From assembly GCF_050320075.1 (NCBI RefSeq), contig NZ_CP190018.1: a stretch of DNA of 64,000 nucleotides; one strand, written 5' to 3'. Made by a program: the position numbers. Origin of the DNA: Escherichia coli. GTDB taxonomy: Bacteria; Pseudomonadota; Gammaproteobacteria; Enterobacterales; Enterobacteriaceae. Below are positions 12,001 through 18,000 of the stretch, piece after piece; positions within the stretch are counted from its first letter, which is position 1; each line of letters begins with the position of its first letter.

Positions 12001-15000
12001 GTTATAACTCCAGGTGGTATTGTCGCGTAAACGCCACGCACCAATATTTAACCCACTCTGTAGGTTTAAATATGCATAATGGCTGTTACCCCCAATTCGA
12101 TTCTGTACACTATTTCCGCTGAAATTATAATTGAGCAATCCGGCATTAATACCGGGATCCCATAACTCAGGAGGAATATAACCACGCGCGCGATTACTCA
12201 TAAATGCCTGAGGGATCGTCAGGTTGAGTCGCTGCTGACCCACATCCAGTTGCGCAGTAGCGTCATGGATCATTGAGGTTAATGGCACGCAGGCATCATC
12301 CGCCAGCAGATTCATACCGGAGACAGAAGCCGTATTCAGCCCCATACTGGCAAGTTGCGCGCGTGTCAGGCAGGGAACAATCCCTTGTTCGCTGTCGCCC
12401 GTATTAAATGTGACATCACGCGTTGCCATATAACCATTATTCAAATAGATATCAACACGATACGTCCCTGGCGGTAATTCTTGCCCATTTTCAAAACGCG
12501 ATAAATCAGCCACAGCCTGGGGATCATCCGCTAAAAAACGCGGGTTAAAATAGAGTTCGGCAGATGACAAAGGTGCCTGTGTGGCAAAAGCACAGGCAAC
12601 AAAGAGTCGGACAAAAAAACCAGCCAAACGATGCTTACGAATATGCAAGCACTGTGTGTTTCGCTGGTAAAGTCTTAAATTCAGATATGACATTATTCCT
12701 CCGGTTTAAATCACCCGGCAGTCAATTCTTTTTATTCAGGCGAAAAAATCCCCCTGCGTTATTCCATTACGCCCGTCATTTTGGGGGTAAGTGCGCCATA
12801 ATCATTTATTGTTCGGTAAGTAATATTGCTTCCTGCATCAGAAGGCAATTTAACCGCGCTTTCGCCCATTGGAGGCACCAATGCATTTTCAAGAACCCGA
12901 GTTCCGGCATTCAACTCTGTTACCGTCAGGTAATAGGGTGTCGGGTTGATCAGCGTCAGAGAATTCGCGCTACGACGAAATCTTAATTTTTCTGCGGCCT
13001 GATCGGGTGGCAACGCTAATTTAGCCGGACGATAGTACAGTTTAATGCGGCTGATAATTGCGAGCTGTAGCGTATTCTCAGTCAATTTTGATTTATCCAT
13101 TGACGGAATCGCTTTAACATTCATCCAGAATAAACTTTCCCGATCCTGTGGCAATTGGTTATTTGTTGCATCAAGAATACGCAAGGTATTCTCTTTTTTT
13201 CCCTTCATCGCAAACAGAGGTGGCGTCACGATAAAACGGCCATCCTTTACACCATCGGCATTTTCTACCCATGATTGAATTAAATAGGTGCTATTTTCAT
13301 CATTATTTGTCACGGCAAGTTGCACTTGTTTTTGCCCTGCCGGATAAATTACGCGAGTCGCACCTAAGGCCACTCCCGCTTCAGCGCGTCCGGCAACCAT
13401 CATTGCCATGAACATCAGGATACCTGCCAGCAAGCAGAATGTTATTTCCTGCGATTTCCTTACATTGACGTTTTTATTACTCACTGTCCTGTTCCTGTTA
13501 TCACATTATCTGCTGAACAATTACTGATAGGTTAAAGAGAACCAGGCCTGGGCATTGGCGATGCCGCCAGTAACCCGACGCCCGGTAGCACGATATTTGG
13601 CGATGAAATGTAGCGAAGTAGAGCCTGAGTAAAGCCGTTTCCAGTTTACTGGAGGACGATTAATCGGTACGAGGTTTCCTTCATCATCAAACAACGCTAC
13701 GCCAATATTGGTGGCTATCCCTGGCCCCTCTCCCACGGAAAGCACATCCGGATTTTTACCATCCGCGACACCGTGAAACGCCACACCCACACGTTCACTC
13801 ACCACCGTGCTACATTCCCGTAAATGAATAACAAAAGGCACCGGTGAGCTATCTTCCCCTACCGCATGAAACCGGTTACTGCTGATTTGCCCCATATTGA
13901 CCGTCATTTGTTTATCACCGGCTTCAATCCGGCAAGCTTCCGCAATAATGACGCCCTGAAATTGCATATTTCCGCCGGGCAGCGTGGTATTCCATTTATT
14001 TCCGGCCAGAGCAAACATTGGCAGCAACGACGCTAACAGAAATAATCTCTTCCTTTTCATCGTTATTTTTATCGCACAAGGGTGGGCATCCCTGCCCGTA
14101 ATGACGTCCCTGAACCTGGGTAGGTTATTGATACTGAACCTTGAAGGTCGCATCCGCATTAGCAGCACCCGGGGTTGCAGCACCGGTTGCAAAATAACGC
14201 GCCTGGAACGGAATGGTGTTAGTACCGTTATTCAGGGTTGTTTCTGAACTAAATGTCGCACCGTCCAGCGTCAGCGCAACACCTGTTCTGTCCAGAATCT
14301 GCACACCAACATTTGTTGCGCTACCCGCAGCCGAACTCTGCAGAGCCAGAACGTTGGTATGAGCCGCATCAATCGCCGTACCTAAAAAGGCAACAGCTGC
14401 TTTAGATGCAACATTGGTATCGCAATCATTCAGCTGAATGTTAAAACCGACAGCAGAACTGGTTGCTCCTTCCTGCGCCAGCGATGCGGTACGAACCTGT
14501 CCTAACTGAACGGTTTGATCAACAGAGCCTGCATCAACTGCGCAAGCGGCGTTAACAACTTCCCCTTTAAAGTGAACGGTCCCACCATTAACCGTCGTGG
14601 CAGCGGCCAGAGCCGCTGTGGAACTGAGGGACAGAGCCGACAGAACAACGATTGCCAGAGTTTTAATTTTCATGCTGCTTTCCTTTAAAAAAACTATTTC
14701 TAAATCGACATGGGCAGTCGTTCTGTACACTTTGTTTTGTCAACGAGTTTGACTGCCAACACTGCACAGTTTTCCCCCAAAAGATGAAACATTTGGGGCC
14801 ATTTTGACTCATAGAGGAAAGCATCGCGCACAAACTTTTTCAGTTTATTTGTTGGCTTAATGTTCTATAGTTATCTTTATTTGCAGTTTTTTATATTGCA
14901 TGAGGTGGTTTTTGGAGAGAAGAATGAGGAAGTTGCGTCGAGCTACAGAAACGTTAGCTTTACATATAGCGGAGGTGATGTGAAATTAATTTACAAGAGA

Positions 15001-18000
15001 AATAATTTACATATCAAACAGTTAGATGCTTTTTGTCGTTTTTTAATATTTTTATGCTTGAGAAAAAATACGTAACTTATTTATGATATAGACAGTTTGG
15101 CCCCAATTGTCTTGTATTTATTTGTTTTTTAACTTTATTATCAATAAGTTAAATCAAGCTTCTTCTCTTTTTAATTTTTCGTTTATGAGATTATTTCTTT
15201 CCCATAATCCGGCAAAACGAGCAGCATTACTGGCGGTATAACGCACAGTATGGCGAATATTTCGATGCCCGAGATAATCCTGAATTAAACGGGTATCTGC
15301 ACCACGTTCCGCCAGTTCATAACCACAAGCATGCCTTAACATATGAGGATGAGTCTGCGTTACGGTTCCAGCTTCAATACCGGCATCGCGAATAATGCGA
15401 TAGGCCTGCTGGCGAGAAAGCCGACTCCCACGGCGAGAAATAAATATAGCGTCGGTCCGGTCAGCGCCTTTCCAGTTAGCACGTTCCTGGGTCCAGCGTT
15501 CCACGGCTTCACGCTCATCAAAACGTAACGGGTGAACGGTAGAAAATCCGTTCTTCAGTCGGCGAATATTTATTCGACCTTCATTAAGGTCAAGATCCTG
15601 ATAATGCAGATCAAGCAGTTCACTAATACGCATCCCATGCCGATATGCCAACAGAATAAGACAATAATCTCTGGCTCCCGTTGCCCCGTAACACACCGCC
15701 TGCATCATGGCCTGAACTTCTTTACCGGTAAGATAACGACGTTTACTCACAATAGTAGTACTCCTGACTGAGATATATTTGAATGAATACCTATAGGAAA
15801 CCTCAATCGGTCAAAATTAGCCCAATAGATAAAAAGATAACCACACCCGAAGTGATGTGGCTATCAGTCAATTACATTAAATATCATACAAAAATAAAAT
15901 ATCACTGATGTGACAACATCTATTTTCATTGATTTGATTCAATATAACAATAGATTGCAGTGGATTAACTTCCAGTTGCTTAAAAAATAAAGAAAAAAGT
16001 ATGGAAACAGGCGAATTTAAGTGATGTGTAAATTTATGAATGATTTTGTTTATTTATTTTGAAGAACATAAACCATTGTATTTTGTATGGATATGGTTAA
16101 CTTAATGTTTATTATGATAATTAAGAATCATACTTACAATAACATCAATTAATAAATGGTTAATCATTTTTGATATATCGTAAGAATAATGTAGTTTTTA
16201 ACACCATCCCTGGTATCTCAACTATCTCTATAAAACAGCGTGACGCTCTCGTCCTCTGGCTCTATCCCAGATGCCGTAAAAACGCCCTGCATTGCTGGCG
16301 GTATACCAGACAGTATGACGAATATTGCGATGTCCAAGATAATCCTGGATAAGTCGCGTATCTATTCCCATATTCGCCAAAGCAAAACCACACGAATGGC
16401 GTAACATGTGCGGATGAATCTCCAGTGACAACCCGGCATTACCACCGGAAGTCGAGATAATATGGTAAAACTGTTGCCGAGAAAGTGGATTCCCCTTACG
16501 TGATAAAAATACCCACTCGCTCTCAGCATGCGGATAAGAAGTACGGATACTCAACCAGTTTTTTAAAGCCTGAATTTCTTTGTTCAATAGCGGGTGCGTT
16601 GTTGAAAAGCCTTTTTTTAATCGATGGATATATATACACTTTGCCTTAAGATCAATATCCGAAATCCTCAATCGGCAAATTTCACTCGCCCGGAAACCAT
16701 GAATAAAACAAAGTAATGTCAGACAATAATTACGTGCAGCATGAGGCCCGGTATTTGCTGCTTTAAGGAGTGATTCGATTTCACTATGGGTCAGGAAGTT
16801 CCTTTTTTTGTTATCAGCCTTATTCTTCATCGTTTTCCCTTATAATTACAGACGCGCACTAGCTGTGCTGGATTAGCAATAATCCAACATTTTAATCCTG
16901 ATTATGTTTATAAAAGCGAACGTTTGCTTAATAACTAACGTAAGTGGACCAGTTCTTCTGAGTGAACTTAAATGGAGTAGCGATAGTTACTTATAATAAC
17001 TTTGCCATACAAACGCCATGCTCTTGCATGCTATGTACCTTTATATATTTATCAATCTGATACGAATCGAATAATAACCCTCATCATTAATGCAACTAAT
17101 CTTATCTATATATCATGTGATATGTTCTGTAACAAGTAAAATCAACATAAAAAATTCAGCAAAATTTAATATTTGTTCAACTAGCCGTCTCACATATGAC
17201 ATTATTAGTCAACTGCATTTGCCACAAAATGGCTATTTCATGGAACGCAGTAATTTCTTAGTGGCTATTATCATGCTAATGCTTAGGTCCCTAGCGATTA
17301 TTCCTGCCTGGTTCGTCAGCTTACGCCATGAGATTGTTACATTCCTTTTTCAGACTGTGTATTTCCTGGAGATATGGGGGAACGCAGGCGACGCCTTTTC
17401 ATCTACATTCGTTGGTAAATATGGCTTTGGTCACTGCGACTTAAACCTTCCTCAATCACAGCTATTCGCCGGGCGATACGGCAAACAAACTATCTGAAAC
17501 ATCATCCTGAAAACACCAACATCTACAAGCCTTTCCAGATCGACTTCAGGGGTGACCACTTACAAGCCAAAACCAGGAAACATATTTCATGATGAGAATT
17601 ATGATCATCCTGATGGCGGGTAAACACTTGTTTTCACCACGCTCACTGAGTTAGCTTGCAAAGCTTCCCTTGTTTAGACCCTAAATAAATTTTTTATAAA
17701 ACAAACGGTTAAAAGAAATCATTTAGTTTTTGAAGACCACCTCAAGTGTTCGTCTGGCTTCACATGGCATCTTCCTCTTAGAAAAAGATCGACATATTTT
17801 GTGACACGAATTGCAAATCTCGTTTTGTTGTATGGATTGCGTGATTTTTGATCTGGTATAACAGGTATAAAGGTGCACCGCGATAGTCAATGAGACAGGG
17901 CATCTCGCAATCTATGGCAAACATCACTTCAGTTCTTTCTCATCGGGTGATGAAAACGCACTTCAGTCTGAAAGGAATATGAAAATGAGATCAACAGACA

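What the first reader, a model, noticed from the sequence alone, without database searches (positions are those of the whole stretch)
14793..15106. fim switch resolved at base level and captured in the phase-OFF orientation
The 9-bp inverted repeats TTGGGGCCA / TGGCCCCAA bracket exactly 314 bp, the published fimS length. The only good sigma70 promoter inside the element (-35 TTGAGA, 18-bp spacer, -10 TATGATA at 15058-15088, + strand) lies next to the fimE-proximal repeat and points toward fimE. fimA is on the opposite side and opposite strand, so this assembly represents non-fimbriate (OFF) cells or a consensus of a mostly OFF population.
Basis: partly seen in the sequence, partly recalled or inferred. 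Interest (0 to 1): 0.6.

Follow-up and report, generated by a model that had tools for sequence, protein, structure and literature searches.

The report
E. coli fimS switch, phase OFF
This is the well-known 314-bp invertible promoter switch for E. coli type 1 fimbriae, assembled in its OFF orientation, which is the orientation in about 95% of complete E. coli genomes, so the finding is correct but ordinary.

Summary
TTGGGGCCA / TGGCCCCAA sit at 14793-14801 and 15098-15106 and span exactly 314 bp between fimE and fimA, both on the - strand. The best sigma70 match, TTGAGA-18-TATGAT at 15058-15087 on the + strand, abuts the fimE-proximal repeat and points away from fimA.

Four independent lines support the OFF call.
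- Two published PCR/restriction orientation assays, run in silico, give the published OFF fragments. The computationally inverted sequence gives the ON fragments.
- The element is collinear with the UTI89 reference, which the literature states is OFF, and with MG1655.
- The promoter hexamers, their 18-bp spacing and their register to the repeat are conserved in 15 fim loci from seven genera.
- FimB, FimE and both repeats are intact, so nothing suggests a locked switch.

Of 5,426 complete E. coli genomes, 4,458 carry this orientation and 250 the opposite. OFF is therefore the default state of an assembly and not a notable capture. The window is E. coli YZLc1-3 (NZ_CP123240.1).

One side observation: a fimS-internal sequence is predicted to pair with the fimA ribosome-binding site only in OFF-orientation read-through RNA. 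It is present in all four Escherichia alleles examined but not conserved in other genera, and may be chance.

This is already known and of low interest.

The parts
14793..15106 (.). fimS, the 314-bp invertible element, assembled in phase OFF
   Evidence: The repeat positions give exactly 314 bp. It is 98% identical and collinear to MG1655 and 99% to UTI89. Both in-silico orientation assays give the OFF pattern.
14793..14801 (+). fimA-proximal 9-bp inverted repeat (IRR), TTGGGGCCA
   Evidence: Exact match. The published IR sequence is TTGGGGCCA (PMC9820224).
15098..15106 (-). fimE-proximal 9-bp inverted repeat (IRL), TGGCCCCAA on the + strand
   Evidence: Exact match on the - strand.
15058..15087 (+). 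PfimA: -35 TTGAGA (15058-15063), 18-nt spacer, -10 TATGAT (15082-15087). It points out of the element through IRL toward the 3' end of fimE, away from fimA.
   Evidence: It is the best sigma70 match in the region, at 10/12. The hexamers, the 18-nt spacing and the 10-nt distance to the IR are conserved in 15 fim loci from Escherichia, Klebsiella, Raoultella, Citrobacter, Enterobacter and Shimwellia, while the spacer sequence varies.
14125..14673 (-). fimA, the major type 1 fimbrial subunit. It is disconnected from its promoter in this orientation.
   Evidence: ORF list and RefSeq annotation of the identical record NZ_CP123240.1.
15154..15750 (-). fimE, the ON-to-OFF tyrosine recombinase, intact
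   Evidence: 198 aa, 197/198 identical to K-12 FimE.
16228..16830 (-). fimB, the bidirectional tyrosine recombinase, intact
   Evidence: 200 aa, 198/200 identical to K-12 FimB.
8079..14060 (-). fimI, fimC, fimD, fimF, fimG and fimH, the rest of the fim operon, all as full-length ORFs
   Evidence: Annotation of the identical record. The fimG ORF is full length at 9001-9510.
14825..14828 (.). Unique BstUI site (CGCG), a diagnostic marker that lies near the fimA side in OFF
   Evidence: assay described in PMC9993118.
15069..15074 (.). Unique SnaBI site (TACGTA) inside the promoter spacer, a diagnostic marker that lies near the fimE side in OFF
   Evidence: assay described in PMC4374849.
14812..14823 (-). 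Candidate anti-Shine-Dalgarno arm inside fimS (RNA UGCUUUCCUCUA). It is in cis with the fimA ribosome-binding site only in the OFF orientation. This is a speculative side observation.
   Evidence: Inverted repeat I4, 12 nt, 92% complementary. Folding gives P(SD paired) of 0.98-1.0 in OFF read-through RNA and 0.26 in the ON 5'UTR. It is not conserved outside Escherichia.
14676..14687 (-). fimA Shine-Dalgarno region (RNA UAAAGGAAAGCA), the partner of the candidate anti-SD

Best explanation
Window 14793-15106 is fimS, the canonical E. coli invertible promoter element for type 1 fimbriae. [quoted passage not shown] They recombine the two 9-bp inverted repeats and flip the 314 bp between them.

The element carries one outward-facing sigma70 promoter, PfimA, about 10 bp inside one repeat. 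In this assembly PfimA lies at the fimE-proximal repeat and fires toward the 3' end of fimE. The fimAICDFGH operon on the other side therefore has no promoter, which is phase OFF. From the literature, the OFF orientation also places a Rho-dependent terminator in the path of the fimE transcript.

An assembly reports the majority orientation of the sequenced culture. FimE drives ON-to-OFF switching much faster than the reverse under ordinary culture, so most cells and most assemblies are OFF.

Shown here: the anatomy, the orientation, the intact recombinases, promoter conservation, and the existence of the same allele in both orientations in other genomes. Inferred: that this strain actually switches, and the ON:OFF ratio in the sequenced culture.
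For: - The IRs are in place and span exactly 314 bp.
- The gene order fimB-fimE-fimS-fimA-I-C-D-F-G-H is all on the - strand.
- Published orientation assays reproduced in silico give OFF patterns within 1-2 bp: 188+539 and 442+161. The inverted sequence gives ON patterns: 434+293 and 405+198 (fragment sizes and primers from PMC9993118 and PMC4374849).
- The element is collinear with the UTI89 reference, which is stated to be OFF in PMC6458436, and with MG1655.
- The promoter TTGAGA-18-TATGAT is conserved in sequence, spacing and register to the IR across 15 loci from seven genera.
- FimE is 197/198 and FimB 198/200 identical to K-12.
- The computationally inverted sequence exists at 100% identity in E. 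coli MP1, and 250 genomes carry that orientation against 4,458 with the window's. Inversion at exactly these repeats therefore occurs in nature.
- The literature states that fimS is 314 bp with 9-bp IRs TTGGGGCCA and holds the fimA promoter (PMC9820224), that it also holds a Rho-dependent fimE terminator, and that FimE predominates so most cells are non-piliated (PMC9096935).
Against: - No reads are available, so the ON:OFF ratio in the sequenced culture is unknown.
- The experimentally mapped fimA transcription start (Olsen & Klemm 1994) could not be read in the held library. Promoter identity therefore rests on consensus match plus phylogenetic conservation, not on a mapped start site seen here.
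- The promoter scan count in the region (2) is no higher than in shuffles (mean 1.8).
Confidence: 0.95

Rival explanations
1. The switch is genetically locked OFF and cannot invert, as in O157:H7 (deletion in fimS), ST131 (IS in fimB) or Shigella (fimB nonsense mutation). It would then not be a phase-variable element caught in its usual state.
For: The OFF orientation is what locked strains show. [quoted passage not shown]
Against: Both IRs are perfect and the element is a full 314 bp, with no deletion. FimE and FimB are full length and 99% identical to K-12. The only substitutions are V198A in FimE and V86I and Q195E in FimB, none at the catalytic tetrad listed in PMC9820224. No IS lies in the fimB-fimA region. 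Trans-acting lock mechanisms (Fis, H-NS, leuX) were not tested.
Confidence: 0.04
2. The promoter was mis-assigned and the element is actually in the ON orientation.
For: A second, weaker promoter-like match (TTGATA-18-TAAATT, 9/12) lies on the - strand at 15017-14988 and faces fimA.
Against: Two published restriction assays that do not depend on any promoter call give OFF fragments. The element is collinear with the UTI89 reference, which is stated to be OFF. The + strand promoter is conserved across genera in a fixed register to the IR. The - strand match is at the level expected by chance.
Confidence: 0.01
3. The culture was a roughly even ON/OFF mixture, and the assembler resolved the repeat-bounded segment arbitrarily. 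The assembled orientation would then say little about the population.
For: An assembly collapses a mixed population to one path, and no reads are available to check.
Against: Across 4,708 complete genomes the split is 94.7% to 5.3%, not 50:50, as expected if assemblies follow an OFF-dominated majority. The literature says FimE makes OFF predominate.
Confidence: 0.05

Closest known systems
E. coli K-12 MG1655 and UPEC UTI89 fimS (FimB/FimE-driven fim switch)
   Same: It has the same 9-bp IRs, the same 314-bp length, the same position between fimE and fimA, the same promoter hexamers and the same OFF orientation. Identity is 98% to MG1655 and 99% to UTI89.
   Different: There are only allelic substitutions. 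About 10 differ from K-12, clustered at 14865-14890, plus A for G at 15090 between the -10 and the IR. One differs from UTI89. This exact allele, with 200-bp flanks, is found at 100% identity in at least 25 listed genomes.
fimS of Klebsiella, Raoultella, Citrobacter, Enterobacter and Shimwellia
   Same: They have identical 9-bp IRs, lengths of 314-317 bp, the fimB-fimE-fimS-fimA arrangement, the same promoter register (TTGCAA-18-TATGAT-10-IR) and a conserved inner half-site ATGAGTCAAAA next to the other IR. Twelve of the 14 representative genomes analysed (13 species plus E. coli E69) are OFF.
   Different: Interior identity is only about 67-69%. The -35 hexamer is TTGCAA rather than TTGAGA. 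The E. coli GCTTTCCTC motif near IRR is absent.
Other UPEC fim-like switches (ipuS, hyxS) and the recombinases FimX, IpuA, IpbA and HbiF
   Same: They use the same mechanism: a tyrosine-recombinase invertible promoter with short IRs (PMC6458436; PMC11316696).
   Different: They have different IRs (7 bp for ipuS), different loci and different target genes. None was looked for in this window.
Serine-invertase switches (Salmonella Hin/hix, phage Mu Gin)
   Same: A promoter or gene segment is inverted between short inverted repeats to give phase variation (own knowledge).
   Different: They use a different recombinase family (serine rather than tyrosine), need a Fis-dependent enhancer, and lack the paired FimB/FimE directional bias.

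Membership tests
fimS invertible promoter switch (E. coli type 1 fimbriae) | Two 9-bp inverted repeats, TTGGGGCCA | tested here: met
   Exact copies at 14793-14801 (+) and 15098-15106 (-), the only two in the window. The published sequence is in PMC9820224.
fimS invertible promoter switch (E. coli type 1 fimbriae) | Element length of 314 bp, including the repeats | tested here: met
   15106-14793+1 = 314. MG1655 also measures 314 by the same method.
fimS invertible promoter switch (E. coli type 1 fimbriae) | Located between fimE and fimA, upstream of fimAICDFGH | tested here: met
   ORFs and RefSeq annotation of the identical record.
fimS invertible promoter switch (E. coli type 1 fimbriae) | Adjacent intact tyrosine recombinases FimB and FimE | tested here: met
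   198/200 and 197/198 identity to K-12, both full length.
fimS invertible promoter switch (E. coli type 1 fimbriae) | A single outward-facing sigma70 promoter next to one repeat | tested here: met
   10/12 consensus match, conserved in sequence, spacing and register in 15 loci. The mapped transcription start was not seen in the papers available.
fimS invertible promoter switch (E. coli type 1 fimbriae) | The segment is found in both orientations, with breakpoints at the repeats | tested here: met
   4,458 genomes are in the window's orientation and 250 in the exact computational inversion, including a 100% match in strain MP1. This was not testable for this strain itself, because no reads are available.
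fimS invertible promoter switch (E. coli type 1 fimbriae) | IHF, Lrp, H-NS and Fis accessory sites and the Rho-dependent fimE terminator inside the element | not tested
   Near-identity to K-12 and UTI89 implies they are present. No site-by-site check was made. The literature is cited.
Phase-OFF state of fimS | OL4/OL20 amplicon cut with BstUI gives about 539+187 bp (ON gives 433+293) | tested here: met
   In silico: 539+188. The inverted form gives 434+293. Assay from PMC9993118.
Phase-OFF state of fimS | Inv-1/Inv-2 amplicon cut with SnaBI gives about 440+161 bp (ON gives 403+198) | tested here: met
   In silico: 442+161. The inverted form gives 405+198. Assay from PMC4374849.
Phase-OFF state of fimS | Same orientation as a reference stated in the literature to be OFF | tested here: met
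   Collinear with UTI89 NC_007946.1 at 99%. The statement that UTI89 is OFF is in PMC6458436.
Phase-OFF state of fimS | Cells are non-fimbriate and fimA is not transcribed | not testable with these tools
   This needs agglutination tests, electron microscopy or RNA data from the strain.

The most novel reading that the evidence does not exclude
Escherichia fimS carries an orientation-dependent anti-Shine-Dalgarno sequence, GCUUUCCUC at 14812-14823. Only in the OFF orientation does it lie on the same RNA as the fimA ribosome-binding site, 124 nt upstream of it, and pair with it. Any fimE read-through that escapes Rho termination would then be translationally silent. This would add a post-transcriptional fail-safe layer to the DNA switch. 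Folding predicts P(SD paired) of 0.98-1.0 in OFF read-through RNA against 0.26 in the native ON 5'UTR. The motif is present in K-12, UTI89, the divergent E69 allele and this window, but absent from six other genera.
Probability: 0.1. Interest if true: 0.4.

Novelty: already known. Interest (0 to 1): 0.08.

Why it matters
It matters little as a discovery. fimS is one of the best-studied phase-variation switches, and OFF is its default state in cultures and assemblies. The practical value is for annotation. PGAP records leave the element unannotated, and its orientation can be called from sequence alone with the checks used here. The survey figures may serve as a baseline for anyone interpreting switch orientation in assemblies: 94.7% OFF and 5.3% ON among 4,708 complete E. 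coli genomes, and 12 OFF and 2 ON among 14 representative genomes. An ON assembly would be the unusual case.

Tried and rejected
- **Mapped fimA start site.** I searched the held literature for the experimentally mapped transcription start and the promoter hexamers. Olsen & Klemm 1994, Hinde 2005, Kelly 2006 and Zhang 2016 are not held. I substituted cross-genus conservation.
- **Rfam.** A scan of 13000-18500 at gathering threshold gave no family.
- **tRNA scan.** I looked for leuX next to the fim island and found no tRNA in the window.
- **Anti-SD idea.** In-silico folding supports it in E. coli. However, the fimS arm is not conserved in Klebsiella, Raoultella, Citrobacter, Enterobacter or Shimwellia, although the SD is. 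There, predicted SD-fimS pairing is mostly 0.16 or less, with exceptions in K. pneumoniae (0.38) and K. grimontii (0.52). The 12-nt match is also within chance for this AG/AT-rich region. I kept it only as a low-probability lead. A literature search found nothing describing it.
- **Apparent fimG truncation.** PGAP calls a 147-aa product. The ORF is full length (169 aa from the first ATG), and the same short call appears in UTI89, so this is an annotation choice and not a defect.
- **Genome-collection pattern search.** It returned 30 loci, 15 of them true fim switches. The other 15 lie in genomes outside the Enterobacteriaceae (MAGs, Acidaminococcus, Herpetosiphon and others) and are consistent with chance.
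Full report
**What is in the sequence**

TTGGGGCCA occurs exactly twice in the window, at 14793-14801 on the + strand and at 15098-15106 on the - strand. The outer coordinates span 314 bp. The 9-mer pair is not statistically remarkable on its own: the expected count is 0.72, and 18 of 100 shuffles reach two copies. Its context is decisive. The segment lies between fimE (15154-15750) and fimA (14125-14673), with fimB (16228-16830) beyond fimE and fimI, fimC, fimD, fimF, fimG and fimH beyond fimA, all on the - strand. It is 33% G+C. 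Read in the fimE-to-fimA direction, it is collinear with MG1655 fimS at 98% identity and with UTI89 fimS at 99%. The literature gives fimS as a 314-bp element flanked by 9-bp repeats TTGGGGCCA (PMC9820224).

**The promoter**

The consensus scan of 14600-15300 finds TTGAGA (15058-15063), an 18-nt spacer and TATGAT (15082-15087) on the + strand, matching 10 of 12 positions. A weaker 9/12 match lies on the - strand at 15017-14988. Two hits is what shuffles give (mean 1.8), so the scan alone proves nothing.

I could not read the primary start-site mapping paper in the held library. I tested the assignment by conservation instead. A pattern scan of one genome per species for TTGGGGCCA-N(292-300)-TGGCCCCAA returned 30 loci. 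Fifteen of them are Enterobacteriaceae loci with fimE beside the element, and tblastn showed fimE and fimA flanking it in 14 of these. At the same end of the element in all 14, plus the window, the sequence reads TTG(A/C)(G/A)A, 18 nt, TATGAT (TATCAT in Shimwellia), 10 nt, then the repeat. The spacer sequence varies freely. That is a phylogenetic footprint of a promoter in fixed register with the recombination site.

**Orientation**

Three tests that do not depend on the promoter call agree.

- The Dorman-lab assay amplifies with OL4/OL20 and cuts with BstUI. Published fragments are 539+187 bp for OFF and 433+293 bp for ON (PMC9993118). In silico the window gives 539+188, and after computational inversion of the 314 bp it gives 434+293.
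- The Inv-1/Inv-2 plus SnaBI assay has published fragments of 440+161 bp for OFF and 403+198 bp for ON (PMC4374849). The window gives 442+161 and the inverted form gives 405+198. The 1-2 bp offsets are the same in MG1655 and reflect rounding or small indels in the published sizes.
- The UTI89 reference genome is stated to have fimS OFF (PMC6458436), and the window is collinear with it.

The element is therefore in phase OFF. PfimA sits at the fimE-proximal repeat and fires toward the 3' end of fimE, convergent with fimE and away from fimA.

**Is the switch functional or locked?**

Both repeats are perfect and the element is full length. FimE is 197/198 identical to K-12 FimE and FimB is 198/200 identical to K-12 FimB, both full length. 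The three substitutions are not at the catalytic tetrad positions listed in PMC9820224. No insertion sequence lies between fimB and fimH. The short 147-aa 'fimbrial protein' annotated in place of fimG is a start-site choice by the annotation pipeline. The ORF is full length, and UTI89 is annotated the same way. Nothing in cis suggests a locked switch. Trans-acting effects cannot be assessed from sequence.

**How unusual is an OFF assembly?**

I searched 5,426 complete E. coli genomes with the 314 bp plus 200-bp flanks. 4,458 genomes hold the window's configuration as one collinear match covering at least 80% of the query. Searching with the computationally inverted construct, 250 do, including a 100% identical match in strain MP1. 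Thirteen genomes with a match fit neither. That is 94.7% OFF and 5.3% ON.

Among the 14 representative genomes from the species scan (13 species plus E. coli E69), 12 are in the window's orientation. Two are inverted: Shimwellia pseudoproteus and E. coli E69. This matches the literature statement that FimE activity predominates and most cells are non-piliated (PMC9096935). An OFF assembly is the rule, and an ON one would be the exception.

**Mechanism**

FimB and FimE are tyrosine recombinases that bind half-sites overlapping the repeats and invert the intervening DNA. FimB acts in both directions and FimE mainly ON-to-OFF. The extended imperfect symmetry around the repeats (22 nt, 77% complementary) and the conserved inner sequence ATGAGTCAAAA next to the fimA-proximal repeat in all species fit such half-sites. 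Inversion connects or disconnects PfimA from fimAICDFGH, and reciprocally connects or disconnects fimE from a Rho-dependent terminator inside fimS. The anatomy and orientation are shown here. The biochemistry is taken from the literature. The behaviour of this particular strain is inferred.

**Provenance**

The window is 100% identical over its first and last 25 kb, at coordinates consistent with one continuous 64-kb stretch, to E. coli strain YZLc1-3 (chicken faeces, Yangzhou), NZ_CP123240.1 positions 4375570-4439569.

**Side observation**

Inverted repeat I4 pairs 14812-14823, inside fimS, with 14676-14687, the fimA Shine-Dalgarno region. On a - strand RNA reading from fimE through OFF-oriented fimS into fimA, the fimS arm GCUUUCCUC is predicted to sequester the SD. 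P(paired) is 0.98-1.0 for four different 5' ends. The 181-nt fold has an MFE of -50.3 kcal/mol and z = -2.86, with 0 of 200 shuffles folding as well. In the native ON 5'UTR the SD core has P(paired) of 0.26.

The arm is present in K-12, UTI89 and the divergent E69 allele. It is absent in Klebsiella, Raoultella, Citrobacter, Enterobacter and Shimwellia, although the SD is conserved there. Predicted SD-fimS pairing in those genera is mostly 0.16 or less. A 12-nt AG-rich match is also within chance for this region. I found no description of it in the held literature. I rate it a low-probability, lineage-specific lead and not a finding.

**Verdict**

The feature is the textbook fim switch in its commonest state. 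It is already known, and its interest is low.

Noticed in passing
window 14812-14823 and 14676-14687: A fimS-internal sequence (RNA GCUUUCCUC) is complementary to the fimA Shine-Dalgarno region. It is predicted to sequester the SD only on OFF-orientation read-through RNA: P(paired) is about 1.0, against 0.26 in the ON 5'UTR. It is present in all four Escherichia alleles examined but not conserved in six other genera, so it may be chance.
   Followed up: partly
window 14780-14801 and 15098-15119: The 9-bp repeats extend into a 22-nt imperfect inverted repeat that is 77% complementary. The inner flank ATGAGTCAAAA beside the fimA-proximal repeat is conserved in all 15 species loci. Both fit recombinase half-sites.
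   Followed up: partly
window 15017-14988 (- strand): A second, weaker sigma70-like match (TTGATA-18-TAAATT, 9/12) inside fimS faces fimA in the OFF orientation. It is at the level expected by chance in this AT-rich DNA.
   Followed up: no
window 15090 and 14865-14890: There are allelic differences from K-12 fimS. One is A for G at 15090, between the -10 hexamer and the repeat in the expected start-site region. The others form a cluster of substitutions in the interior. The UTI89 allele differs at only one position within fimS.
   Followed up: partly
window 9001-9510: RefSeq (PGAP) annotates fimG as a 147-aa 'fimbrial protein' starting at an internal Met, which removes the signal peptide. The ORF is full length (169 aa from the first ATG). 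The same short call appears in UTI89.
   Followed up: yes
L012 (E. coli E69, CP089930.1) 513-827; L006 (Shimwellia pseudoproteus) 711-1026: Two of the 14 representative genomes have fimS in the ON orientation. The E69 allele is 315 bp and only about 90% identical to the window's fimS. fimS lengths across genera range from 314 to 317 bp.
   Followed up: partly
window 39463-42078: An IS66-family ISCro1 element (tnpA, tnpB and transposase) is inserted beside a GRP-family sugar transporter gene and the mtnK/mtnA genes. Only 2 of 5,426 genomes hold at least 80% of window 39001-64000 in one piece.
   Followed up: no
window 47532-55553: This is a defence cluster. It holds McrB- and McrC-family genes, then an Alw26I/Eco31I/Esp3I-family type IIS restriction endonuclease with a cytosine-5 methyltransferase (annotated dcm) and an adenine methyltransferase.
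   Followed up: no
window 56148-63780: This is a remnant of a CP4-like island. It holds an IS3 fragment, a CbtA-family toxin with a YeeU-family antitoxin, genes for DUF957, DUF5983, DUF987, DUF932 and DUF905 proteins, an antirestriction protein, a JAB-domain protein and a GTPase.
   Followed up: no
window 20264-23005 and 24013-24560: There is a run of annotated pseudogenes downstream of nanC-nanM: a truncated sialate O-acetylesterase, a frameshifted phosphorothioated-DNA-binding restriction endonuclease, yjhR with an internal stop, and a frameshifted yjhQ next to topAI.
   Followed up: no
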